A DNA stretch of 64,000 bases from Okeania sp. SIO2F5 (lineage in GTDB: Bacteria > Cyanobacteriota > Cyanobacteriia > Cyanobacteriales > Microcoleaceae): NCBI RefSeq assembly GCF_010692685.1, contig NZ_JAAHGU010000008.1:41619-105618 (forward strand), written 5' to 3'. The notes under the pieces are model-generated. The model did not search any database. It saw only the letters and a program-made list of their open reading frames with translations, and had not been told where the DNA came from. A program made the translations under genes and the position numbers. Of this stretch, positions 24,176 through 42,371 are shown one piece after another (within the stretch, counting starts at the first letter, position 1; each line of letters starts with the position of its first letter).

Positions 24176-27100
24176 GTGAGGATAGTCAAGATAAATATGA
24201 AAATACAGAAGAATCAAGAATATAGCTATCAAGTAGGTAATTATTTAGCATTAGAACATCCCACTTATGTTAGACGCTCGGCAGATAAAGAGTTATTTAA
24301 TGCTTTGAAGAAAGGTGAATATTGTTATGTATTAAGTTCTCCACAAACGGGAAAATCAAGTTTAAAAATTAGAACAATACAACTTTTGCAAGCAGAAAAT
24401 ATTATCTGTATTGCTTTAGATATGACTAGAGTTAATAATAAACTTTTGACTATAGAAGAATGGTATGAGCAAATAATTTTAACTTTAGAGAAGACTTTTT
24501 TATTTCCTCGACATTTCCCGGAATTATGGTGGGAAGAAATGGCATATCTGCCTGGGGATGAAAGATTATTTATTTTTATTGAAGAGGTATTGTTAGTTAA
24601 TACTCAAAATGAGAAAATAGTAATTTTTATAGATGAAGTTAATGATGAGAGTGTTGTTAATTCGGGCTTTAGTAGTTTAGGGGTATTAATTGATTATTGT
24701 ATTGAGCAAAGAACAAATAATCCAAAATTTCAACGTTTAACATTTGCTTTGTTAGGAACAACTATACCCGATAATTTAATAGATAGATGTAGATATATTG
24801 AACTTAATAGTTTCAAAAAAGAAGAAGTAGCTCATTTAGCGCAGCTATTTAAAGGCATAGTTAAAAAGCCACTACAAGTTATAGAAAAAATATTATATTG
24901 GTCGGGTGGACAACCATTTTTAACGCAAAAACTGTGTCAAATAGCGATTGACTATCTGGGAGAAAGAAGAGGAGAAGAAAATTATAATGAGATAGCTTTA
25001 ATAGAAGATTTAGTAAAAATTTGTGTTATAGAAAACTGGGATTCACAAGACTACCCAATTCATTTCAATAAAATACAAAATCTTTTGCTGAAGAATATAC
25101 AGAAATCTACCAGTCATTTAGAAATATATCAACAAATATTAAAACATGGTAGATTAAGACCGCCTGGTCAAGATAATCAAAAATTTAAAAATGATGCGAT
25201 CGCTAATCATCAATGGGAAATTAAAGAGTTATTGAGGTCTGGTGTAGCGAAAATAAATCGTGGTTTTTTAGAGGTATACAGTCCGATATATGCAGAAATT
25301 TTTAATCAAGAATGGGTACAACAATATTTACCAACAGTAACTACAGCTCCTCAAACTAATCCTCAAATATTAGAATTAAATGACCAGGAAAAAATATCTC
25401 TAATGGTATCTGATTTCTCTAATGAAGAAGGAAGAAGGAAGAAGGAAGAAGGAAGGAATAAAAAGTGGATAGGGACTCAAACCCTAACTAATTATCAAAA
25501 CCCTGTAGACGGCGGGGTATTAAACCCAAAAGAAAAAGATAATAAAAATAATAATTCAAATGAAATTCAGGTTCAGCAACAACATGAATTAGGGGAAATA
25601 ACAGCACATAAAAATCAGAATAATTCCCATAATATTCCGCTTAAATTACTAGAGAAACAACAGGAGAAACCAGTACAAAAAAATCAGAATAATCCCAATA
25701 ATATTCCGCTTAAATTACTAGAGAAACAACAGGAGAAACCAACAGAAAAAATTAATAACAAAGTTCAGAAAAAACAGATAGTTCGGAAAAAAGTCAAAAC
25801 ATCTTCAAATCAGCAGAATAAACTGAAACTAGGAGTGGCGGGTTTAGTTATAGTCTCAATAACAGCAATGACAGTAGTTGGTTGGGCAACTAAACTTTTT
25901 AAAGATACACAAAATCAACTTCAAAGAGCAGAATATCAACTAGAAAAAGCACAGTACGAACTTCAAGAAGCACAAGAAGGTACAAAACTAGAACACAAAG
26001 GAATTACTGCTTTAAGAAAATTTGAAATTGCAGAAATAGAAGCATTACTATCAGCAATGCAAGCTGGAAAAGAACTAAAAGAATTAGTTGGAGGCGATCG
26101 CCCACTTCAATATTATCCAGCTACAAGTCCCATATTTGCCTTACAACAAATACTCAACAATATTCACGAGAAAAATCAAATTCCCAACGTCAAAAAAATT
26201 ACCATGAGTCCTGATGGCCAACTACTCGCCACAGTTAACAATGATGGTACAGCCAAAATCCTCAAATACTCAGGTCAGTCTGTAGCTCAATTAAGAGGAC
26301 ATCAGGGCAAAGTTTCTCACATTAAATTTTCACCAGAAGGAAACATTCTAGCTACAGCAGGAGATGATAGTACAGTTAGAATCTGGGATTTTCTGGGTAA
26401 GCAGCAAGTAGAACTAAAAGGCCATGAAGGTCAAATTTGGCAAATTACTTTCAGTCCTGATGGTAAATATATAGCTACAGCAGGAGAAGATGGCACTGCA
26501 AGAATTTGGAATATATCAGGCAAGAAAATAGCGACTCTCAAAAAACATCAAGGTCGAATCTTAGATGTCACATTTAGCCCTGATGGTAAATATATAGCTA
26601 CTGCTGGATGGGATGGGACTGCGAGAATTTGGAATCGATCCGGAAGACAGTTGGCCAGACTCAGGGGGCATAAAGGTAGCGTCGAAAAAGTAATATTTAG
26701 TACAGATGGTCAACGTTTAGCCACTGCTGGATGGGATGGCACAATTAGGGTTTGGCGACGTAGTTCCGGTAAACTACTAACCAAACTTAAGGGAGGTGAA
26801 GGCGGGATCTGGAATGTTAGCTTTAGTCCGGATGGCAAAAGTTTGGCTACAGCAGGAGAAGATGGATCAGTCGCGATCTGGGATACTTCAGGCCAAGTAT
26901 TATCAAAACTTCCTGGACATCAAGGAATTGTCACCAGTGTTAGTTTTAGTCCAGATGGTGAACGTTTAGCTACAGCAGGTAGTGACGGCAGTGTGAAAAT
27001 TTGGAACAATAATGGTAATTTGTTAGCCAATCTTAGAGGACATCAAGGCAGGGTTTGGGAAGTTAACTTTAACGCTGATGGACAACGACTATTAACTTTG

Positions 27101-28075
27101 GGAGAGGATGGTACAGGTAGAATTTGGTCACTAGAAGGTAATCACGAGACAACTCTTCAGGGAAACTCCGATATTTTTGGGTCAGTAAGTTTTAGTTCTA
27201 ATAGTCAGAAATTAGCAACAGCAGCAGTTGATGGTACTGCCCGCATCTGGGATATTTCGGGAAAACCTTTAGCTCAATTTAATGGATATCTGGGAATGTT
27301 TGGGGATATGAGTTTTAGTCCTGATGGTCAACGTCTAGCTACTGCGGGAGATAGTGGTCAGGGGAGAATTTGGAAGATTTCAGGAGAAGAGTTGATAGAG
27401 CTAAAAGGTAAAAAGGGCAGAGCAAAGCAAATTGGTTTTAGCCCAGATGGGCAACGTTTAGCAACGGTGGGAGAAGATGGTGTTGCCCGCATCTGGAATA
27501 ATTCTGGTCAACAGTTGGCTGAGTCAAAAGGGCATAATGGTCGTGTGTTGGATGTGGTTTTTAGTCCAGACGGACAATATATTGGTACTGCTGGAGAGGA
27601 TGGTATTGCCAAAATCTGGGATAGTTCTTTTCAGCTTGTGTCAGAATTGAAAATTCTTTCAAGTTGGGTCGAGAGTATGGCTTTTAGTCCATCTGGAAAG
27701 TACATAGTGACGGGAGATAGCAATGGGGTAGTCAAAATTTGGGATTTTTCGGGGAATCAAATTGCTGATCTGAAGGGCAATATAGGTAGTGTGAATAATT
27801 TGACTTTTAGTGCTGATGGGGAGCAGGTGGCTAGTATGGGCAAAGATGGAATGGTAAGAATTTGGGATATTACTGGACGTCAATTAGCTCAATTTGAGAA
27901 TGCTAAGGCTTTAAGTTTGGATGGTAAATATGTGGCAACTTTGGTGGATAATAATTTACAGTTGTGGCGCGTGAAAGGATTAAATGATTTGTTGAAAGGT
28001 TCTTGTGATTGGCTTCAAGATTATTTTATTACTCATCCCAAGGTGAAGGATGATTTAGAAATTTGTGATATGTAG
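24176..28075 (+). CDS. AAA-like NTPase, repeat-rich linker, single TM, 14 WD40 repeats and a Cys-containing C-terminal tail.
   Basis: Walker A SSPQTGKSS and Walker B IVIFIDEV. TM is LGVAGLVIVSITAMTVVGWATKLF. There are 14 IW(D/N)xSG-type WD repeats. The tail is SCDWLQDYFITHPKV...EICDM. Confidence 0.85.
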   Translation: MRIVKINMKIQKNQEYSYQVGNYLALEHPTYVRRSADKELFNALKKGEYCYVLSSPQTGKSSLKIRTIQLLQAENIICIALDMTRVNNKLLTIEEWYEQIILTLEKTFLFPRHFPELWWEEMAYLPGDERLFIFIEEVLLVNTQNEKIVIFIDEVNDESVVNSGFSSLGVLIDYCIEQRTNNPKFQRLTFALLGTTIPDNLIDRCRYIELNSFKKEEVAHLAQLFKGIVKKPLQVIEKILYWSGGQPFLTQKLCQIAIDYLGERRGEENYNEIALIEDLVKICVIENWDSQDYPIHFNKIQNLLLKNIQKSTSHLEIYQQILKHGRLRPPGQDNQKFKNDAIANHQWEIKELLRSGVAKINRGFLEVYSPIYAEIFNQEWVQQYLPTVTTAPQTNPQILELNDQEKISLMVSDFSNEEGRRKKEEGRNKKWIGTQTLTNYQNPVDGGVLNPKEKDNKNNNSNEIQVQQQHELGEITAHKNQNNSHNIPLKLLEKQQEKPVQKNQNNPNNIPLKLLEKQQEKPTEKINNKVQKKQIVRKKVKTSSNQQNKLKLGVAGLVIVSITAMTVVGWATKLFKDTQNQLQRAEYQLEKAQYELQEAQEGTKLEHKGITALRKFEIAEIEALLSAMQAGKELKELVGGDRPLQYYPATSPIFALQQILNNIHEKNQIPNVKKITMSPDGQLLATVNNDGTAKILKYSGQSVAQLRGHQGKVSHIKFSPEGNILATAGDDSTVRIWDFLGKQQVELKGHEGQIWQITFSPDGKYIATAGEDGTARIWNISGKKIATLKKHQGRILDVTFSPDGKYIATAGWDGTARIWNRSGRQLARLRGHKGSVEKVIFSTDGQRLATAGWDGTIRVWRRSSGKLLTKLKGGEGGIWNVSFSPDGKSLATAGEDGSVAIWDTSGQVLSKLPGHQGIVTSVSFSPDGERLATAGSDGSVKIWNNNGNLLANLRGHQGRVWEVNFNADGQRLLTLGEDGTGRIWSLEGNHETTLQGNSDIFGSVSFSSNSQKLATAAVDGTARIWDISGKPLAQFNGYLGMFGDMSFSPDGQRLATAGDSGQGRIWKISGEELIELKGKKGRAKQIGFSPDGQRLATVGEDGVARIWNNSGQQLAESKGHNGRVLDVVFSPDGQYIGTAGEDGIAKIWDSSFQLVSELKILSSWVESMAFSPSGKYIVTGDSNGVVKIWDFSGNQIADLKGNIGSVNNLTFSADGEQVASMGKDGMVRIWDITGRQLAQFENAKALSLDGKYVATLVDNNLQLWRVKGLNDLLKGSCDWLQDYFITHPKVKDDLEICDM

Positions 28076-33070: not shown

Positions 33071-36000
33071 ATGTCAGAATATTACAATGCCTTCATCTCT
33101 TACGGACGTGCCGACAGTAAATCTTTTGCTACAAAACTCTATGAAAAACTCACAGAAAATGTTCTAAAAATCTGGTTTGACCAAAATGATATTCCTCTGG
33201 GAGTAGACTTTCAAAATCAAATTGATGATGGCATCATAAAAGCTGATAATTTTCTGTTTATTATTGCGCCTCATTCTGTTAATTCTCCCTACTGTCTCAA
33301 AGAAATAGAATTAGCTATTAAATACAATAAACGAATTATTCCCCTGCTTCACGTCGAACAAATTAATTATGAAATTTGGCAAGAACGAAATCCTCAAGGA
33401 ACTTTAGAAGAATGGGAGGTTTATCAGGAGAAAGGTAAACATTCCAGCTTTCCCAATATGCACTCAGAAATAGGTAGAATTAACTGGGTTTATTTTCGGG
33501 AAAATATTGATAATTTTGATAAAAGTTTAACTGACTTAATCGCATTATTTAATCGTCACCAAGATTATGTAAAACAACATACTAAGATTTTAGTTAAAGG
33601 TTTAGACTGGGAAAATAATCAAAAACAAACTCGTTACTTGTTAATTGGAAAAGAACGTCTACAAGCAGAACAATGGTTAAAGATTAAATTTACAGAAGAA
33701 CAACCCCCTTGTATTCCTACAGATTTACATTGTGAATTTATCTGTGAAAGTGATAAAAATGCTAATAATTTAATGACTCAAGTTTTCCTGGCTTTTGCTG
33801 AAGCAAATAAAAGTTTTATGGAGCAAATCAGGAAAAGTTTAATTAGAGAAGGAATTACTGTCTGGAGTTCTCATGCCGATATTAAAACTGGAAAAGATTT
33901 TCAAATAGAAATTAATCAAGGAATTGCTGGAGCGGATAATCTAATTTATTTATTGTCTCCTGAAGCCATAAAATCTGAATATTGCCAACAGGAATTAACT
34001 TATGCTTTGAGTCTGAATAAACGAATTATTCCTCTTTTAATTTCTCCTACAGATTTAACAGAAATTTCTCCAGAAATAAGTAATTTACAATTCATTGATT
34101 TTACTGCATCAGAGCCAGAAGGAATAGATAAACTCCTGAAAGAATTAAAGTCAGAAGCTGTTTATTATCAACGGCATAAAATTTTATTAGTCAAAGCTTT
34201 GAAATGGCTGTCACAAAATCGTAACCCTAGTATTTTATTACGGGGTTATAATCTCGAACAATCTCAAAGTTGGCTGGAATTAGCTGGAAATAGAACGGCT
34301 AATTTACCTACATATTTACAAACAGAATTTATTGCCGAAAGTGCTAAACAACCACCTAATTTAGTTTTAGATGTTTTTGTTTCTTATTCCAGAGCAGATT
34401 CAGATTTTGCTAGACAGTTAAATGAGGCATTACAAACTCAGGGAAAAACTACTTGGTTTGACCAGGAAAGTATTGCTACAGGCACAGATTTTCAACAGGA
34501 AATTAATCGCGGAATTGAACAGTCGGATAATTTCTTATTTATTATTTCTCCAGATTCAGTAAATTCTCCCTATTGTGGAAATGAAGTAGAGTATGCCAAA
34601 AGTTTAAATAAACGTTTTGTGACAGTATTATATCGAAAAGTTGATAGTAAGGAGTTGCATCCAGAATTAGCAAAAGTGCAATGGTTAGATTTTCATCGGT
34701 ATGGAGGAGAATTTTATACTAACTTTAGCGAGTTAGTACGTTTTTTGGATACTGATAGAGATTATGTCAGAAACCATACAAAGTTTTCACAACAAGCATT
34801 GGACTGGGAGGAAAAAGCTAGTGAAGATTTATTGCTACGAGGAAGTGAACTGGCGATCGCTAAAAACTGGTTACAGGAAGCTCTTAACACTAACAAACAA
34901 CCCCCACTCAACAAGTTGCAAAAGAAATTTATTGAAGCTAGTGACGACCTACATACTAGCATCCAACAAGCAAGAGCAAAACGCAGACAACTTGATATCA
35001 CAACTGCTTGGGGAATTACAGTAGGTTCCCTGTTGGCAGTTATGATTAGCACTGGGTTGTGGCAAAATTCTAGACATGAGCATAAAAAAGCTCAACTTAA
35101 TTTAGCACAGTCTCTTGCTCGCTCTTCCTCCTCTCTATTTGTCGGTAACAAAGAATTAGAAGCATCGATTGAAGTTATTAAAGCGGGGAAAAATTTGCAA
35201 AGATACAAGGTGAAAGACGCAGAAGTGATCGACGCATTGCAACAGTCTGTTTATAGTGGCAGTGAAAGCAACAGATTACAAGGACACAAAAATTCTATTC
35301 GCTCTCTGAGTTTTAGTCCAGATGGCAAAATATTGGCATCAGGCAGCGATGATAAACAGATTAAGCTTTGGAATATGGAAACGGGAGCAGAAATACGAAC
35401 TTTCTCTGGACACGATCGCTCTGTTATTAGTGTTTGCTTTAGTGCGGATGGGAAAATTTTAGCATCGGCAGGAAAAGATAAGAAGATAAAACTTTGGGAT
35501 GTAGAAACAGGTAAGGAAATTGATACTTTCTCCGGACATACTGACTGGATAAATAGCATGAATTTTAGTCCAGATGGTAAGATTTTAGTATCAGGGAGTA
35601 AGGATAATACGATTAAACTCTGGAATGTAGAGACAGGCAAAGAAATTTACACCCTTTTCGGGCATCAGGATAGTGTAATTAGTATCAGTTTTAGTCCTGA
35701 CGGTAAAACTTTAGTATCGGGAAGTAAAGATAAAACAATTAAGTTTTGGGATGTAGAGACAGGTAGAGAAATTTACACCCTCTTCGGACATAATGGTTTG
35801 GTAAGTAGTGTCCGTTTTAGTCCCGATGGCAAGATATTAGCAAGCGGTAGTTATGATAAGACTGTTAAACTTTGGGATTTAGAAACAGGTGAGGAAATTC
35901 GGACTTTGACAGGACATTTTAGTTCAATTATGAGTGTGAGTTTTAGTCCGAATGGTAAACATTTAGCGACTGGTAGCAAAGACCGGATAGTTAAGCTATG

Positions 36001-37174
36001 GGATATAGAAACAGGAAATGAAATTCGCTCTTTTTATGGTCACGATGCTTGGGCATTTCGGGTAAGTTTTAGTCCAGATGGCAAGATATTAGCATCGGGT
36101 AGTGGTGACAAAACCATCAGACTCTGGAATTTAGAAACGAGAAGGGAACTTAGTACACTTAAAGGACATGATGATTCGATTCAACATTTAAGTTTTCCTC
36201 TAGCTTCATCCCCTCAAATATATAAATCTGAGAAAGAGATGATATTTGTTTCTGGTGGCGCTGATAAAACTGTCAAGATATGGGATTTGAAGACTAAAAC
36301 TCAAGATACTTTGAAGGGACATGATGACTCGGTAATGAAAATTAGCGTTAGTCCGGATGGCAAGACCATTGCTTCTGCGGGTGAAGATAGCACTATTATT
36401 TTATGGGATGTAGAAACAAAACAAGAGATTCATCGACTTGAAGGTCATACCGATGCAGTCAAGGCGATTAGTTTTAGTCCGGATGGCAACATCTTAGCTT
36501 CTGGCAGTAAAGATACTACTATCAAACTTTGGAATTGGATAACAAAAGAAGAAATAGGCAATTTAAAAGGTCACGAAAGCACGGTAATGACAATGAGTTT
36601 TAGTCCGGATGGCAAGACCTTAGCTTCTGGTAGTAAGGACAATATAATTAACCTCTGGAATATAGAAACAATGGAAAAAATGGAACCTCTCATAAACGAC
36701 AATCAGAGTTCTAATTTTAGTGTCAGTTTCAGTCCTGATGGTAAGACCTTAGCTGCTGGAGGCGATCGCAATCTTGTTACTTTATGGGATGTGGAAAAAA
36801 GAGAAAAAGTTTTCACTTTCAAAGGTCATAGTAGTTCTATTAACAGCGTTAGTTTTAGTCCGGATGGTAAGATTTTAGCTTCTGGAAGTTCTGACAAAAC
36901 AATTAAACTGTGGAACCCGAAACAGGGAAATTCTATTTTGACATTTCACGGACATGAAGACTCAGTTAATAGTGTCAGTTTTAGTCCGGATGGTAAAGTC
37001 TTAATATCTGGTAGTGATGATAAAACAATTAGACTTTGGGATGTAGAAAAACTAGATTTAGAGGTAGATTTAAACGACCTAATGCTCCGTAGTTGTAATT
37101 GGGTGCGTGGTTATTTACAGCATAATCCTTATGTGGAAGAGGAGAATAGAAACTTGTGCGATAATATTGGTTAA
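33071..37174 (+). CDS. Three tandem TIR domains, a single TM, 14 WD40 repeats and a Cys-containing C-terminal tail.
   Basis: TIR1 is aa 5-100 (FISYGRAD...SPYCLKEIELA). TIR2 is aa 235-325 (...SEYCQQELTYAL). TIR3 is aa 432-520 (DVFVSYSRADS...SPYCGNEVEYAK). TM is ITTAWGITVGSLLAVMISTGLW. There are 14 KLWD/NxETG repeats. The tail is SCNWVRGYLQHNPYV...LCDNIG. Confidence 0.85.
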   Translation: MSEYYNAFISYGRADSKSFATKLYEKLTENVLKIWFDQNDIPLGVDFQNQIDDGIIKADNFLFIIAPHSVNSPYCLKEIELAIKYNKRIIPLLHVEQINYEIWQERNPQGTLEEWEVYQEKGKHSSFPNMHSEIGRINWVYFRENIDNFDKSLTDLIALFNRHQDYVKQHTKILVKGLDWENNQKQTRYLLIGKERLQAEQWLKIKFTEEQPPCIPTDLHCEFICESDKNANNLMTQVFLAFAEANKSFMEQIRKSLIREGITVWSSHADIKTGKDFQIEINQGIAGADNLIYLLSPEAIKSEYCQQELTYALSLNKRIIPLLISPTDLTEISPEISNLQFIDFTASEPEGIDKLLKELKSEAVYYQRHKILLVKALKWLSQNRNPSILLRGYNLEQSQSWLELAGNRTANLPTYLQTEFIAESAKQPPNLVLDVFVSYSRADSDFARQLNEALQTQGKTTWFDQESIATGTDFQQEINRGIEQSDNFLFIISPDSVNSPYCGNEVEYAKSLNKRFVTVLYRKVDSKELHPELAKVQWLDFHRYGGEFYTNFSELVRFLDTDRDYVRNHTKFSQQALDWEEKASEDLLLRGSELAIAKNWLQEALNTNKQPPLNKLQKKFIEASDDLHTSIQQARAKRRQLDITTAWGITVGSLLAVMISTGLWQNSRHEHKKAQLNLAQSLARSSSSLFVGNKELEASIEVIKAGKNLQRYKVKDAEVIDALQQSVYSGSESNRLQGHKNSIRSLSFSPDGKILASGSDDKQIKLWNMETGAEIRTFSGHDRSVISVCFSADGKILASAGKDKKIKLWDVETGKEIDTFSGHTDWINSMNFSPDGKILVSGSKDNTIKLWNVETGKEIYTLFGHQDSVISISFSPDGKTLVSGSKDKTIKFWDVETGREIYTLFGHNGLVSSVRFSPDGKILASGSYDKTVKLWDLETGEEIRTLTGHFSSIMSVSFSPNGKHLATGSKDRIVKLWDIETGNEIRSFYGHDAWAFRVSFSPDGKILASGSGDKTIRLWNLETRRELSTLKGHDDSIQHLSFPLASSPQIYKSEKEMIFVSGGADKTVKIWDLKTKTQDTLKGHDDSVMKISVSPDGKTIASAGEDSTIILWDVETKQEIHRLEGHTDAVKAISFSPDGNILASGSKDTTIKLWNWITKEEIGNLKGHESTVMTMSFSPDGKTLASGSKDNIINLWNIETMEKMEPLINDNQSSNFSVSFSPDGKTLAAGGDRNLVTLWDVEKREKVFTFKGHSSSINSVSFSPDGKILASGSSDKTIKLWNPKQGNSILTFHGHEDSVNSVSFSPDGKVLISGSDDKTIRLWDVEKLDLEVDLNDLMLRSCNWVRGYLQHNPYVEEENRNLCDNIG

Positions 37175-37508
37175 ATCAAAGTGGGTATTCAATAATTAAC
37201 AATTATTAATGGCTTTGTTGCATGAATGTTGCGATCGCAGATGACTACCTTTAACTAAATTTTCTGGGGTTGCACATTATGGAATGATATTGCCAAAAAT
37301 TGGTTTAGATTTTGACTAAAAATAACCATTAATTAATCATTCTAGCAATTGATTAATCCACAATCCAATTCAATCAAAAATATCAAATCATTCGTCACTG
37401 TGCAACGCCAATTTTCTTATCGACTAGGGCAAATGTGGCTGCATCCAATTATAGATTTTTCTATTCCTCCAGAAGCAGTTTTTTTTTCGTTTACCAGCTT
37501 GGCAACTT

Positions 37509-38003
37509 TTGGAAAGTAGTAAAGACCAATTATTAGCCACAACTAAACTAGAAAAACTTTCATCAATAGTGATTATTGCTGCTGCATATAGAGATGCACA
37601 ATTAACTGTTGATAAACAAAATTTTCCTTTACCTGCTGCTGTTAGTTACTGGCGTTCTCAAAAACTGCGTAATGTATTTATAGGAGGAGAAATTCATGCT
37701 TATATGGTTCATCATTTCCTGAACCAAAGATTAGTTATACCTATTCCTGATTTATGGCTAATTGGGGTAGCTATTGTGTTAGGTAAAGGAATAGTATTAA
37801 TCTTAGAAAAAAAATCTCCATTACGCCAACAAAAAGGGATTTTTTTATTCCTATTTTTACTAAATATAATTTATGGTTTAGCTAGTCTACAAATTTATAT
37901 TACTGCTGCAATTTTATTGCCTTTGTTCTTGCCTAGTTTAACATTTTGGGTTTGTATATTTTTCTATTTAATAAAACCAAAATCGACAATTAAATTAGTT
38001 TGA
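37509..38003 (+). CDS. Small multi-pass membrane protein with no recognisable domain. It has a TTG start, so the true start is uncertain.
   Basis: 164-aa ORF whose C-terminal two-thirds are 3-4 hydrophobic helices. It sits between the TIR-WD40 gene and the cyclase gene. Confidence 0.4.
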   Translation: MESSKDQLLATTKLEKLSSIVIIAAAYRDAQLTVDKQNFPLPAAVSYWRSQKLRNVFIGGEIHAYMVHHFLNQRLVIPIPDLWLIGVAIVLGKGIVLILEKKSPLRQQKGIFLFLFLLNIIYGLASLQIYITAAILLPLFLPSLTFWVCIFFYLIKPKSTIKLV

Positions 38004-38007
38004 CAAT

Positions 38008-40311
38008 TTAAATGGAAGAGGAGTGTTTTCTATCAACCCCCATCCCCTCACCCCAAGAAGGTCGCACATGATAAGTAGGAAATGTACCATAACCCTTAGC
38101 CAAAGGAGTTTTTCCCACATAATCGCAAGTAAATTCCTTTACCCCCTCCGAAGCTACCATTGCAGCAAACTCCTGACTCGAATAAACTTTCCCTGGTGGA
38201 GTAATAGGTTCAATTCTGGCAGCATAATTTACATGAGTACCACTGTAGGTTGTATCCCCAGTGATGGGATTAGTATATTTATAAACCACCCCTGTATGTA
38301 ACGCTACCCGTAAATTCAAACTTGCAGGCAACCCTACTTTTTCCCAATCTGTACTCTGAACAAGATCACATACTTCTAAGGCAAATAAACCTGCATCCCT
38401 TACATTAGAGAAGACATAATATAAAGCATCTCCCCAAGTATTTTTCATCACTGGTTTATAAGAAGATTGAACCTCAAACTTTGCCACCGCACCGAAAAAA
38501 TGTTCTACAAATATACTAATCTGGTTTTCCTTCAACTTAGAATAACTCTTGACATCTGCAAATAACAACGCCATAATTAACCGATTTTCGTCCTCTGGCG
38601 CAGAGGTTGGTTGTAGGGGAGTTGTCGGTGTAGATAGTGTATTCAATATCTCTACTTTCTGTGTCATCACAGATTGTAAAATCTGCTGAATATCAATGAT
38701 TTCCACATTATCATTCCATTGTCGCCAAAATTCTACAGCCCTTGCTGTACCACCTATCCCACCAATTTGTTGATTCCAAACAGCCATTGGTATAAGTTCT
38801 GTATCCAACTGTTCTGCTCGCATTTTTGCCATCCCGTAGAGAATATTATTAGTGTATTCATAGGAAATATTGCTGTTTTCAAGATTATAATGAGTTGGAA
38901 TAATCACTTCTGTTGCTTTTTCCAAAACTTCATCAAATCGTTCTAGCCAAGTGCTATTAGGAATAATATCAATAGAATTTTTGATAAATTGTTCTCGCTC
39001 ATGGGGTAAGACAATATGAGCCTCTCCTTGAAGTTCATATAATGCTTCCAAAAATAAAATATCACTACCACAAGCTGCAGCAGCATAACCCAATCGAGCA
39101 TCTAACTGAATCAGGCGATCGCGAATCGCTTGATAAACCTGTAACTCTATTTCTGGAGGAAACCTCGGTGGTGTGCGACCTGGTTCATCAATCATGTGAC
39201 CGCTAAATACTACCACTCTAGGAATTTGAAAACAGTGCTTAATCAATTCCATATCCCCCTGGCGATATTGTACAATCAAAGTAGCATTACGACGAGTCGA
39301 TCTTAAATCCCCCAATTTCCCCCTAGCTAATTCCACCGCTTGATTATACCAATTTTCTGCCTCTAAATTTTCCCCTAAAATCAAAGCTACTTCTCCCAAA
39401 GTTGCCAGTAACCAGTAGTCATTCTCACTCCTATGGGAAACTGCTGGGAGTTTAGCCAGACATTTTTCCTGTACTTCAGCAGCGATCGCCTTTGCTATTT
39501 CAGCATCTCCCATCAACATTGTCATTGTCGCGGCATTTATCCCCGGATAATAATCCCCACTCATTTGATAAGCTTGTTGATATCGTTGAGCTGCCAATGC
39601 TATTTGTTGGGTACTTTCCTCTGGAGAGCTTGCTTGCTGCCACAAATCTTTATGAGTTCTGGCTAACAAACAAATAGTTTCCTCGTCATTTTTGCCAGAG
39701 TTTACTAACTCTAATAATAAATTATTAGCCCGTTGAGTTGCTCCACTTCGAGCTAAACTCAAAACTAAAAGTTGTTGTAAACGGATATCATTCGGCCATT
39801 CTTTTAACCCTTCCGATAAAATATCATAAGCCATTAATGGCTCCCCAAGTTTCAGGATATATTCACCCAAAATCCGAAAAATTTCTGGGTAACGCAAATG
39901 GAGATTAATAGTTTCTCGACGAATTGTTTGTAAACTTTTTAAATTTAGTTGGGATGATTTTTTTAAACTTTCTAAAATTAACGATAAATTATTATCATCA
40001 ACTGTAGCAGTTTTTTCAGTAGTAGTTTCGCTTCCTTCTATTCGATAACCTATGGCTAAAAGAGTTTTAATTACTCCCATAGAAACAACGCGGTCATATT
40101 CTTTTTCTGACTCTGGCAATTCTTCATAAGGCACTAAACCAGGATGTAATTTTTGGGCATCATCTCGATTTTTTCCATATTTCCAACCTTCAGAAATTCG
40201 CTGTTTTGCCCAAATGTCATGGGTATTTTTAGCCAGTAATTCAGTAATTTTTAAATGTTCTGTTGTCAGATTTACCTTGGAAGTATCTATTGGATCTGGT
40301 TTATAGTTCAA
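38008..40311 (-). CDS. RyR domain, TPR repeats, a Rossmann-like (SLOG/DprA-like?) domain and a class III nucleotidyl cyclase.
   Basis: N-terminus matches the RyR-domain consensus (ELLAKNTHDIWAKQRISEGWKYG..RDD..KLHP.LVPYEELPESEKEYDR). The C-terminal cyclase motifs are FADVKSYS, GDALYYVF and LRVALHTGVVY...GTHVNYAARIE. Confidence 0.8.
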   Translation of the reverse strand: MNYKPDPIDTSKVNLTTEHLKITELLAKNTHDIWAKQRISEGWKYGKNRDDAQKLHPGLVPYEELPESEKEYDRVVSMGVIKTLLAIGYRIEGSETTTEKTATVDDNNLSLILESLKKSSQLNLKSLQTIRRETINLHLRYPEIFRILGEYILKLGEPLMAYDILSEGLKEWPNDIRLQQLLVLSLARSGATQRANNLLLELVNSGKNDEETICLLARTHKDLWQQASSPEESTQQIALAAQRYQQAYQMSGDYYPGINAATMTMLMGDAEIAKAIAAEVQEKCLAKLPAVSHRSENDYWLLATLGEVALILGENLEAENWYNQAVELARGKLGDLRSTRRNATLIVQYRQGDMELIKHCFQIPRVVVFSGHMIDEPGRTPPRFPPEIELQVYQAIRDRLIQLDARLGYAAAACGSDILFLEALYELQGEAHIVLPHEREQFIKNSIDIIPNSTWLERFDEVLEKATEVIIPTHYNLENSNISYEYTNNILYGMAKMRAEQLDTELIPMAVWNQQIGGIGGTARAVEFWRQWNDNVEIIDIQQILQSVMTQKVEILNTLSTPTTPLQPTSAPEDENRLIMALLFADVKSYSKLKENQISIFVEHFFGAVAKFEVQSSYKPVMKNTWGDALYYVFSNVRDAGLFALEVCDLVQSTDWEKVGLPASLNLRVALHTGVVYKYTNPITGDTTYSGTHVNYAARIEPITPPGKVYSSQEFAAMVASEGVKEFTCDYVGKTPLAKGYGTFPTYHVRPSWGEGMGVDRKHSSSI

Positions 40312-40861: not shown

Positions 40862-41200
40862 CTAACCAAGCAAAAGTCCTTTATACCACCCAACGTCTGG
40901 GCAAAACTTTAAATCCTTTTTCAGTTCTGAATAGTTAATTTCCATCCACTTGCTCATTGCCACTGGCTTCTCTAGTTTTATTCTATAACCTTGATCTGCC
41001 CAAACAATTTTCAGATTCGGGGCCTCATTTGATGACTTGAAGAAATATAAACTTAGCTGCTGTACAATACCTATACAATTCCGGCAAAACTTGGTAAAAC
41101 CTGAGTAATGCCAGTCAAGATGTTTGCTTCTTGCTTCAACCTGGGAGGCCGCCCTCTTCCAGTTCACAAGCGTAAATTCGGGTACAGCCTACCCTATTTT
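40862..41200 (-). ncRNA. Putative TnpB-associated omega (right-end) RNA region.
   Basis: Inferred only by analogy. In IS605-family elements the guide RNA overlaps the tnpB 3' end and the right end. Boundaries were not determined. Confidence 0.2.
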
Positions 41201-42371
41201 TTTGATTAATTTCCCCATACTGAGATAACACCAGTGCTGCATTCAAGTCCCGGTCTATTATCATTCCAAAGTTAGGGCAATCAAAGGTGCGGTCTTTTAG
41301 CTTTAATTCTTGATGAATATGACCACAACTATGACAAGTTTTAGAAGATGGAAACCACTGGTCAGCTAGCACTACTGTCCCACCGGAGCTTACGATTTTG
41401 GTTGTCAATCGTTGCCGAAACTGATAAAATCCTTGCCTAGCTATTGATGCTGCTAATTTACCATTTTGCATCATTCCTTTCACATTTAAACTCTCTAAGC
41501 AGACGTGCTTGACTTGAGTCACTAATTTTGTAGTAGTTTTCTCTATGAAATCTCTACGCACGTTAGCAATACGACAATGGTACTTCGCGAGTTTTTTGTA
41601 ATATTTAATCGCATTTTTTGAAGGTGGTTTACCTTTACCTCCTACTTGTTTATTGCGATTGCGCCATTGAAACTTAGCCAGGTTTAATTGCTCTAGTTTA
41701 ATAGAGTCTGGGAGACTTACAACTTCATTTTCTCTCTTTTTTTGGTTTGCTATACTTGCAAATTGTTTGACTCCAACATCTATACCAAAAGTTTCGTATT
41801 GTCGCTTATCTAATAGGGGATGAACTGGCAACTTCTCAGCTTCAATACTAAAACTAACAAACCATTTTTCCCCTGTTCTACTAATAGTAAAAGTCTGACT
41901 TGCTGTGGTGTAAGGTATTGATTCCCATAATCGAAAAGTCCCTAGTGTTGGTATTTTAATTTTTTTACCAGGGTTAATTGTAACTTTTCCATTACCGTCA
42001 TAAACAGTAAAAGATTGTCTGTCTTTTTTCCTTTTCAACTTAGGATACTTACTGGTTCCTTCTTTATACCGTTTAAATGCTTCACCTAGATGTTGAAAAG
42101 CACTTTGATAAATGCGGGACGAATAATTGTTGATCCAGGCATATTCTGGCTGCTTTTTTACATAGTTAGTAAAGACTTTTTTAGCTTCTAAAATACGTAA
42201 TGCGTAACTCAAGCTCACTTCCTGACCACGTTTGTTAACTTTGGTCATGGCAGAAGTTCCATTAACCATACTGAGGCCATAGTTGTAAACAAAACGAGCA
42301 TAACCAGCACATTTCGCCATAAATGAGCGCTCCTGGTTACTGAGTTTTAATTCAAGTTTTTTGGCGTACAA
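41136..42371 (-). CDS. tnpB: TnpB (OrfB) RNA-guided endonuclease-like transposase accessory protein.
   Basis: N-terminal HTH (KCAGYARFVYNYGL), RuvC-like blocks, the zinc ribbon CHSCGHIHQELKLKDRTFDCPNFG, and C-terminal DRDLNAAL. Confidence 0.9.
   Translation of the reverse strand: MYAKKLELKLSNQERSFMAKCAGYARFVYNYGLSMVNGTSAMTKVNKRGQEVSLSYALRILEAKKVFTNYVKKQPEYAWINNYSSRIYQSAFQHLGEAFKRYKEGTSKYPKLKRKKDRQSFTVYDGNGKVTINPGKKIKIPTLGTFRLWESIPYTTASQTFTISRTGEKWFVSFSIEAEKLPVHPLLDKRQYETFGIDVGVKQFASIANQKKRENEVVSLPDSIKLEQLNLAKFQWRNRNKQVGGKGKPPSKNAIKYYKKLAKYHCRIANVRRDFIEKTTTKLVTQVKHVCLESLNVKGMMQNGKLAASIARQGFYQFRQRLTTKIVSSGGTVVLADQWFPSSKTCHSCGHIHQELKLKDRTFDCPNFGMIIDRDLNAALVLSQYGEINQKNRVGCTRIYACELEEGGLPG

What the first reader, a model, noticed from the sequence alone, without database searches (positions are those of the whole stretch)
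33083..34630. Three consecutive TIR domains, each with the catalytic-glutamate context intact
All three TIRs have the FISY/FVSY beta-A strand and a W/Y-C-x-x-E motif (CLKEIE, CQQELT, CGNEVE) where plant and bacterial TIR NADases carry the catalytic Glu. This suggests all three are enzymatically competent rather than decayed duplicates. TIR NADases must self-associate to become active. Three TIRs in cis could give a pre-assembled or cooperative active site, which is unusual.
Basis: partly seen in the sequence, partly recalled or inferred. Interest (0 to 1): 0.6.

Follow-up and report, generated by a model that had tools for sequence, protein, structure and literature searches.

The report
Three-TIR output cassette of a cyanobacterial receptor
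The gene really does start with three TIR domains that all keep the catalytic glutamate, but this is the standard front end of a very large, unstudied family of membrane receptors found mostly in cyanobacteria, and the middle TIR is a systematically altered version that may not be an enzyme.

Summary

TIR2 reads FLAFAE, not FISY. It also lacks the Asp equivalent to SARM1 D594 (W-S-S here, W-T-N across the family).

The cassette is not rare. It occurs in 435 stretches of species-level genomes, and one unit matches 1342 50%-identity clusters at E<=1e-30. The sensor half varies (WD40, CHASE2 and others). Unit number ranges from 2 to 7, most often following (type1-type2)n-type3. All three TIRs are under purifying selection.

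About a third of related loci encode LSDAT-SLOG and/or DUF4231/SLATT partners, often operon-like, which points to NAD-derived signalling. This window has none.

BB-loop tips of TIR1 and TIR3 are disordered in the monomer model. I therefore favour activation in trans over a pre-assembled cis active site. A CHASE2 remnant downstream records a recent sensor swap.

The parts
33071..37174 (+). Complete ORF, 1367 aa: [TIR+helical]x3, hydrophobic segment, ~13 WD40 repeats
   Evidence: ORF; Pfam TIR_2 x3, WD40 x13; 96% nucleotide identity and collinear with the Okeania hirsuta locus L001
33080..33550 (+). TIR1 (aa 4-160), 'type 1' unit. FISYGR, W-F-D37, BB-loop QNDIPLGVDF, Y74-C-L-K-E78 (Glu codon 33302-33304). 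Carries a ~28-aa insertion (aa ~100-128) absent from TIR2 and TIR3
   Evidence: motifs invariant or nearly so in 118 homologues; profile alignment to BtTir, AbTir, SARM1; fold
33551..33766 (+). Helical module 1 (aa 161-232): DYVxxHTxxLxxxLxW...LLxGxxxxxAxxWL...PP
   Evidence: repeats after each TIR; invariant H170, W180, L190-L191, W202; helices 164-182, 193-203, 218-231; no Pfam family
33767..34150 (+). TIR2 (aa 233-360), 'type 2' unit. Beta-A FLAFAE, W-S-S267 in place of W-F-D, BB-loop HADIKTGKDF, Y304-C-Q-Q-E308 (Glu codon 33992-33994)
   Evidence: profile vs PDB; hhalign vs SARM1: E308 on E642, S267 on D594; dN about twice that of TIR1 and TIR3, omega<0.5
34151..34354 (+). Helical module 2 (aa 361-428)
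34355..34750 (+). TIR3 (aa 429-560), 'type 3' unit. FVSYSRADSDF, GKTTW-F-D464, BB-loop QESIATGTDF, Y501-C-G-N-E505 (Glu codon 34583-34585)
   Evidence: last unit in most arrays classified
34751..34990 (+). Helical module 3 (aa 561-640). The sensor-swap breakpoint lies inside it (nucleotide homology to the CHASE2-type orthologue ends at nt 34876)
34991..35062 (+). Predicted single membrane-spanning segment (aa ~641-664); borderline hydrophobicity
   Evidence: best 19-aa Kyte-Doolittle window 1.62 at aa 641; flank net charges +3 N-side, +2 C-side
35234..37102 (+). WD40 beta-propeller region (aa ~722-1344), the variable sensor half
   Evidence: WD40 E=5e-170, 13 stretches
37409..37991 (+). Frameshifted remnant of the 3' end (CHASE2 C-terminus plus TM helices) of a TIRx3-CHASE2 gene. 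Left behind when TM+WD40 replaced the CHASE2 part. Includes orphan ORF 37509..38003
   Evidence: P0001 aa 870-895 and 896-1067 match 37409-37486 and 37488-37991 in two frames at 81-88% identity; P0001 aa 665-869 absent; weak CHASE2 hit

Best explanation
The gene encodes a membrane-anchored receptor of a large family found mostly in filamentous cyanobacteria. The family's constant cytoplasmic output is a rigid array of three [TIR + three-helix] units, and its C-terminal half is an exchangeable sensor: WD40 propellers here, CHASE2 in the syntenic orthologue of another Okeania. TIR1 and TIR3 carry the full signature of NAD+-cleaving TIRs and are the likely catalytic units. TIR2 keeps the Glu and the BB-loop but has lost the Asp equivalent to SARM1 D594 throughout the family, and here also the beta-A Ser and Tyr. 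It is more likely a structural or regulatory partner, or a nucleotide-binding pseudo-enzyme, than an equal third enzyme. Proposed mechanism: sensor engagement brings receptors together; the exposed BB-loops of TIR1 and TIR3 then dock on TIRs of neighbouring chains; composite active sites form and cleave NAD+ into an ADPR-type signal, or simply deplete NAD+. In many relatives that signal would be read by adjacent LSDAT-SLOG and DUF4231/SLATT two-TM proteins. Shown: domain identity, motif conservation, purifying selection, family size, modularity, and the neighbourhood association in relatives. Inferred: catalysis, activation in trans, the product, and the topology (WD40 outside the cytoplasm).
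Against: No enzymology exists for any family member. The residue before the Cys is Tyr, not the Trp of AbTir and SARM1. No SLOG, SLATT, Macro or SIR2 partner lies in this 64-kb window. The neighbourhood association holds in only about a third of loci, these are not phylogenetically independent, and there was no control set. A pTM of 0.86 shows a fixed inter-unit geometry that could include cis TIR-TIR contacts, which I could not inspect. The hydrophobic segment is borderline, so the membrane topology is uncertain. PADLOC and NCBIfam give only generic, sub-threshold TIR hits.
Confidence: 0.55

Rival explanations
1. One reading: all three TIRs are active NADases, and being linked in one chain gives a pre-assembled or cooperative active site that needs no further oligomerisation.
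For: The Glu is conserved in all three units. All units are under purifying selection. A high pTM implies fixed inter-unit geometry. Arrays of 2-7 units in which type-2 units usually alternate with type-1 or type-3 units suggest the units work as neighbours.
Against: TIR2 lacks the D594-equivalent Asp family-wide, and here also the beta-A Ser and Tyr; the corresponding SARM1 mutants lose activity (PMC8266388). The BB-loop tips of TIR1 and TIR3 are disordered in the monomer model. A ~70-aa helical spacer separates consecutive TIRs. A constitutively assembled NADase would be toxic unless otherwise gated.
Confidence: 0.15
2. A non-enzymatic scaffold. The TIR array is a homotypic interaction platform, as classically described for TLR/MyD88, that recruits other TIR proteins or effectors after the sensor is engaged.
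For: The best structural matches include adaptor-type TIRs: TRR-2, MyD88, TIRAP, IL-1RAcP. TLR1/2/6/15 TIRs match the profiles as well as the NADases do and share WCxYE. TLR2 has the Glu but no detected activity (bioRxiv 10.64898/2026.04.20.719644). The architecture of sensor, TM and cytoplasmic TIR resembles a TLR.
Against: TIR1 and TIR3 keep essentially the whole NADase pocket signature invariant across the 118 full-cassette members drawn from diverse genera of cyanobacteria. Relatives sit beside SLOG and SLATT proteins, which sense small nucleotide signals rather than TIR scaffolds. Bacterial TIRs tested so far are generally enzymes (Essuman 2018, as cited in PMC8195603).
Confidence: 0.15
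3. Division of labour with TIR2 as a ligand sensor. TIR1 and TIR3 make the nucleotide signal. The altered TIR2 pocket binds NAD+, ADPR or a cADPR isomer and allosterically gates or amplifies the array (feedback).
For: TIR2 retains its fold, BB-loop and Glu but has a remodelled pocket that is itself conserved (W-T-N, S-Y-A/S-E/D) and under purifying selection. Type-2 units lie between canonical units in most arrays. Inactive TIR/SLOG-class domains are proposed nucleotide sensors (PMC9503650).
Against: There are no binding data. Retention of the Glu in 114 of 118 sequences is not required for a pure binder. In this protein TIR2 has diverged further than the family consensus.
Confidence: 0.15

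Closest known systems
Thoeris-type TIR signalling (ThsB TIR plus a SLOG- or SLATT-containing effector; type VII = TIR + SLATT with cADPR; type III = several TIR proteins + SLOG effector)
   Same: TIR domains with the catalytic Glu. In about a third of related loci the TIR gene lies next to LSDAT-SLOG and DUF4231/SLATT genes, often under 400 bp away on the same strand.
   Different: Thoeris TIR proteins as described in the preprint consulted (bioRxiv 10.64898/2025.12.03.692087) are separate TIR-domain genes paired with an effector gene; none is described there with several TIRs in one chain (type III uses several separate TIR proteins). Here three TIRs share one chain, fused to a TM segment and a large sensor. 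This window has no effector. The NCBIfam ThcB4 score of 114 is below the 220 cut-off. There is no evidence of anti-phage function or of a defence island.
SARM1 / TIR-1 (NAD+ hydrolase TIR)
   Different: No ARM or SAM domains. There is one TIR per SARM1 chain versus three here. Tyr replaces W638. TIR2 lacks the D594 equivalent.
Toll-like receptors, including mollusc Tolls with tandem TIRs (PMC4929906) and Dictyostelium TirE with two tandem TIRs (PMC13142454)
   Same: Repeat-type sensor, single TM and cytoplasmic TIR(s). More than one TIR in cis has precedent. TLR TIRs match the profiles strongly.
   Different: The order is reversed (TIRs N-terminal). The sensor is WD40 or CHASE2 rather than LRR. 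Each TIR is followed by a dedicated helical module. Unit number reaches 7. The protein is bacterial.
TIR-STAND/NLR-like proteins of multicellular bacteria and plant TNLs (TIR, NTPase, WD40/TPR/LRR)
   Same: An N-terminal TIR output and a C-terminal repeat sensor. Enriched in filamentous, multicellular bacteria (PMC7159879).
   Different: No NTPase domain lies between the TIRs and WD40. A hydrophobic segment sits there instead.
SPARTA TIR-APAZ
   Same: Best Foldseek hit (E=5e-6). The PADLOC Aga_TIR-PNTD profile matches aa 435-602, which extends past the TIR into the helical module.
   Different: No APAZ domain or Argonaute partner. The similarity is limited to the TIR and a following helix.

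Membership tests
TIR domain superfamily (Pfam TIR_2, PF13676) | Sequence match above the Pfam gathering score | tested here: met
   270.6 bits against a cut-off of 28, three stretches
TIR domain superfamily (Pfam TIR_2, PF13676) | Flavodoxin-like beta-alpha fold superposable on solved TIRs | tested here: met
Catalytic (NAD+-cleaving) TIR | Glutamate at the alpha-C catalytic position (SARM1 E642, AbTir E208) | tested here: met
   E78, E308 and E505 align to it. Conserved in 118, 114 and 111 of 118
Catalytic (NAD+-cleaving) TIR | Asp after beta-B (SARM1 D594) and beta-A Ser-Tyr (SARM1 S567/Y568) | tested here: not met
   Met for TIR1 (FISY, WFD37) and TIR3 (FVSY, WFD464). Not met for TIR2 (FLAF, WSS267; family WTN)
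Catalytic (NAD+-cleaving) TIR | Intact BB-loop with the conserved Gly (SARM1 G601) | tested here: met
   G44, G274 and G471; the loops are equal in length in all three units
Catalytic (NAD+-cleaving) TIR | Glu-dependent NAD+ cleavage | not testable with these tools
   Requires enzymology
Thoeris defence system | TIR gene adjacent to an effector gene with a signal-binding domain (SLOG, Macro, SLATT and others) | tested here: not met
   No LSDAT or DUF4231 homologue in the 64-kb window (tblastn). Present in 26 of 76 related loci
Thoeris defence system | Match to curated ThsB/ThcB models above their cut-off | tested here: not met
   NCBIfam ThcB4 114.5 bits against a cut-off of 220. PADLOC gives ThsB-like partial hits only
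Thoeris defence system | Protection against phage | not testable with these tools
   Requires experiment
TIR-STAND / NLR-like receptors | STAND NTPase (NB-ARC/NACHT) between the TIR and the repeat sensor | tested here: not met
   Only TIR and WD40-type families found. Only about 80 residues, including a hydrophobic segment, separate the cassette from WD40
Cyanobacterial [TIR+helical]n receptor family (unnamed) | Full-length collinear match to the 1-2-3 unit cassette followed by a variable sensor | tested here: met
   The top 120 homologues cover 76-100% of aa 1-645 (117 of them the whole cassette) at 42-92% identity. 230 of 271 proteins classified have the 1-2-3 architecture

The most novel reading that the evidence does not exclude
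The [TIR + three-helix] array is a covalently pre-organised TIR strand. Canonical units (types 1 and 3) alternate with Asp-less type-2 units, so that each canonical/type-2 pair forms an asymmetric composite active site in cis, with type 2 as the non-catalytic, BB-loop-donating or ligand-gating partner. Array length (2-7 units) would tune output. This would be a single-chain equivalent of the TIR filaments of SARM1, AbTir and TIR-SAVED, coupled to exchangeable extracytoplasmic sensors in multicellular bacteria.
Probability: 0.15. Interest if true: 0.8.

Novelty: new variant of a known kind. Interest (0 to 1): 0.5.

Why it matters
TIR domains signal or kill by cleaving NAD+ once they self-associate. 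All well-studied cases bring single TIRs together through separate oligomerisation domains or filaments. Here evolution has fixed several TIRs in one chain with dedicated spacers. The unit order is conserved and the middle unit is reproducibly remodelled. The array has been attached to different sensors, with one such swap caught in the act at this locus. The family is very large in filamentous cyanobacteria and also occurs in Ca. Parabeggiatoa and a Gemmatimonadota MAG. I found no description of it in the searchable literature. Working out whether the array acts in cis or in trans, and what the type-2 unit does, would add a new assembly logic to TIR signalling. It would also give an experimental handle on cell-death or immune-type signalling in multicellular bacteria.

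Tried and rejected
(1) An exact look-up of the protein in public assemblies found nothing. The source was inferred from the 95-96% identity to Okeania hirsuta instead. (2) The Foldseek afdb50 library was unavailable, so I could not look for whole-array structural relatives. PDB searches matched single TIRs only. (3) The prediction tool returns no coordinates or PAE, so cis TIR-TIR contacts could not be examined. Only pLDDT and pTM could be used. (4) The helical modules have no Pfam family. (5) Literature searches for 'three/triple/tandem TIR' found only mollusc Tolls and Dictyostelium TirE. 'LSDAT + SLATT + TIR' gave nothing, and the 'TPR-S' search was uninformative. (6) I considered and rejected a TIR-STAND/NLR reading, because there is no NTPase. 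I also rejected membership of Thoeris for this locus, because there is no adjacent effector and the model scores are below cut-off. (7) I considered the idea that TIR2 is a decaying duplicate and rejected it. Omega is below 0.5, and its altered motifs are themselves conserved across the family.

Full report
**What is there.** The finding lies inside one intact ORF, 33071..37174 on the + strand, 1367 aa. Pfam finds three TIR_2 stretches (E=4e-80 for the whole protein; E=2e-81 on aa 1-645) and 13 WD40 stretches.

Aligning the N-terminal region to itself shows that the repeating unit is longer than a TIR. Each TIR is followed by a helical module of about 70 residues with its own conserved motif (DYVxxHT...LxW...LLxG...AxxWL...PP). 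Unit identity is 30-40%. The modules have no Pfam family.

The cassette ends at about aa 640. It is followed by a borderline hydrophobic segment, aa ~641-664, and then the propellers.

**Checking the observation.** C-x-x-E occurs at aa 75-78, 305-308 and 502-505, each preceded by Tyr. I built a family profile for each TIR and searched the PDB.

- All three profiles align without gaps from beta-A through alpha-C to BtTir (7uxr), AbTir (7uwg/8g83), Cat1 (9mud) and SARM1.
- In each case the Glu falls on the W-x-x-x-E glutamate.
- hhalign of the TIR2 profile against the SARM1 TIR puts E308 on E642.
- The BB-loops are the same length in the three units and keep the Gly equivalent to SARM1 G601.

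So the Glu context and the BB-loop are confirmed. The claim that all three have FISY/FVSY is wrong. TIR2 reads VFLAFAEANK.

**Structure.** AlphaFold2 on aa 1-645 with a 50-sequence alignment gives mean pLDDT 89.9 and pTM 0.86. That pTM points to a fixed arrangement of the six sub-domains rather than beads on a string. The only segments with pLDDT below 50 are residues 42-44 and 469-471, which are the BB-loop tips of TIR1 and TIR3.

**The three TIRs are not equivalent.** In 118 full-cassette homologues:

- TIR1 and TIR3 keep F-I/V-S-Y-x-R-x-D-S, W-F-D and the BB-loop almost invariantly.
- TIR2 has the consensus VFLSY(A/S)(E/D)xD and W-T-N. It lacks the Asp that aligns with SARM1 D594 in the whole family.
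- In this protein and a minority of family members (17 of 118 have Ala and 9 of 118 Phe at the two beta-A positions), TIR2 has also lost the beta-A Ser and Tyr (FLAF) and reads W-S-S.
- The Glu is nevertheless kept: 118/118 in TIR1, 114/118 in TIR2 and 111/118 in TIR3.

D594A, Y568A, G601P and E642A all reduce SARM1 NADase activity (PMC8266388). The Glu alone is not diagnostic either. TLR2 and IL-1R9/10 carry it without detectable activity, although the TLR4 TIR can make cADPR (bioRxiv 10.64898/2026.04.20.719644). TLR1/2/6/15 match my profiles as well as the bacterial NADases do.

Codon-level comparison with ten related genes gives dN/dS of about 0.1-0.2 for TIR1 and TIR3 and 0.14-0.44 for TIR2. 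None of the units is decaying, but TIR2 evolves about twice as fast.

**How common it is.** The cassette is the constant front end of a very large family.

- A word-indexed search returned 823 proteins at E<=1e-10. The top 120 cover 76-100% of the 645 residues (117 of them the whole cassette) at 42-92% identity. They come from Okeania, Dapis, Nostoc, Anabaena, Calothrix, Coleofasciculus, Lyngbya and others.
- Their C-termini carry WD40, CHASE2, FHA plus pentapeptide, or an AAA-like domain.
- In one genome per species, 435 stretches encode it. Every named record among the 76 loci listed is cyanobacterial; two are labelled only 'uncultured bacterium'.
- Several genomes have two or three copies in tandem.
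- An exhaustive phmmer search with a single unit found 1342 50%-identity clusters at E<=1e-30.

Unit number is not fixed. I counted 2 to 7 units per protein. Of 271 proteins classified, 230 are 1-2-3, 15 are 1-2-1-2-3, and rarer forms include 1-2-3-1-2-3 and 1-2-3-2-3-2-3. In most arrays type-2 units alternate with type-1 or type-3 units and type 3 comes last; a few proteins (for example 1-1-2-3, 1-2-2-3, 1-3-1-2-3, and some that may be truncated) depart from this. Long arrays occur in Leptolyngbya PCC 7376, Ca. Parabeggiatoa and a Gemmatimonadota MAG. I found no paper describing this architecture.

**Context.** The window is from an Okeania-like cyanobacterium. The O. hirsuta locus L001 is collinear at 96%. 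Nothing in the 64 kb resembles a Thoeris-type effector.

The picture is different across the 76 related loci.

- 26 encode an LSDAT_prok SLOG protein (E=1e-66) and/or a DUF4231/SLATT two-TM protein (E=3e-30) within 10 kb.
- 11 of these lie under 400 bp from the cassette gene on the same strand.
- SLATT_1+TPR-S proteins (8 loci) and patatin-like phospholipases (6 loci) also recur.

SLOG and SLATT proteins are the established readers and effectors of TIR-made ADPR-type signals. Type I Thoeris uses a SLOG domain. Type VII Thoeris pairs a TIR with SLATT and signals with cADPR (bioRxiv 10.64898/2025.12.03.692087; predicted earlier by Burroughs et al. 2015, as cited in PMC7159879 and PMC9503650). 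This is the strongest indirect argument that the family's TIR arrays make a nucleotide signal.

**A sensor swap at this locus.** In Okeania sp. SIO3B5 (L003) the syntenic gene is a 1067-aa TIRx3-CHASE2 protein (P0001).

- Its first ~600 residues match the window gene.
- Its residues 665-869 are absent from the window.
- Its residues 870-1067 match window 37409-37991, just downstream of the WD40 gene's stop codon, in two reading frames.

The orphan ORF 37509..38003 is therefore the stranded 3' end of a CHASE2-type gene whose sensor was replaced by TM+WD40. Okeania SIO2C9 (L008) has two cassette genes between the same flanking genes. The constant-output, variable-sensor design is thus directly visible here.

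**Mechanism.** I favour a receptor whose sensor half drives clustering. Clustering would let the exposed BB-loops of TIR1 and TIR3 complete active sites on TIRs of other chains. The product would be an ADPR-type signal or NAD+ depletion. TIR2 would be a structural or regulatory partner.

- Shown: the domains, motifs, selection, modularity and neighbourhoods.
- Inferred: catalysis, the trans mode, the product and the topology.

The predominantly alternating unit order and the high pTM keep it alive at about 15%.

**Verdict.** It overstates three things: the equivalence of the three TIRs, the diagnostic value of the Glu, and rarity. The object is a new, uncharacterised variant of TIR signalling architecture, and of moderate interest.

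Noticed in passing
window 37409-37991 (ORF 37509..38003): Frameshifted remnant of the C-terminus (end of CHASE2 plus TM helices) of a TIRx3-CHASE2 gene, directly downstream of the WD40-type gene. It records replacement of the CHASE2 sensor by TM+WD40. The intact CHASE2 version sits at the syntenic locus in Okeania sp. SIO3B5 (L003, P0001).
   Followed up: yes
window 24176-28075 (+): A second large receptor-like gene, 1299 aa: AAA_35 (PF14516) ATPase-like N-terminus, a low-complexity region, a hydrophobic segment and ~11 WD40 repeats. It ends in the same C-terminal cap motif (SC[DN]W...Y...P......CD) as the TIR gene. PF14516 is also one of the alternative partners of the TIRx3 cassette (P0070).
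   Followed up: partly
window 38008-40311 (-): A convergent 767-aa neighbour: RyR domain, TPR-S, MAP3K_TRAF_bd (DUF4071), an unassigned ~200-aa region (VVVFSGHMIDEPGR..., no Pfam hit), then a class III nucleotide cyclase. It is syntenic in L003 and L008. TPR-S also occurs in the SLATT_1+TPR-S proteins found next to cassette genes elsewhere (L035). It may be a second nucleotide-signalling protein; any link to the TIR gene is untested.
   Followed up: partly
window 41136-42371 (-): An IS200/IS605-family TnpB (OrfB_IS605 plus Cas12f1-like TNB). TnpB-like ORFs also recur near cassette genes in 9 of the 76 related loci.
   Followed up: no
L004 9772-19436; L051 77-14689; L058 5042-18572; also L002, L008, L025, L052, L062: Cassette genes occur as tandem arrays of two or three paralogues with different C-terminal sensors in several genomes.
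   Followed up: partly
L003 vs window 33071-34990: Mosaic synonymous divergence along the cassette: dS is about 0.1 for TIR1 through helical module 2, 0.37 for TIR3 and 1.9 for helical module 3. This suggests recombination or gene conversion between paralogues close to the sensor junction.
   Followed up: no
L020 14234-15790 (also L022, L028, L033): The DUF4231/SLATT-like neighbour, immediately downstream of the cassette gene, carries a C-terminal region with a weak Glyco_hydro_19 (lysozyme/chitinase-like) match. It could be a membrane and cell-wall-directed effector.
   Followed up: no
window 33368-33454 (aa ~100-128 of TIR1): TIR1 has a ~28-aa insertion between beta-D and the following strand that TIR2 and TIR3 lack. 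It is conserved in the family (W103 and W115 invariant) and is predicted as two short helices.
   Followed up: no
P0125, P0139, P0143 (long arrays): In some 5-unit arrays individual units have lost the catalytic Glu (replaced by Gln or absent) and other motifs. So not every unit of longer arrays is kept enzyme-like.
   Followed up: partly
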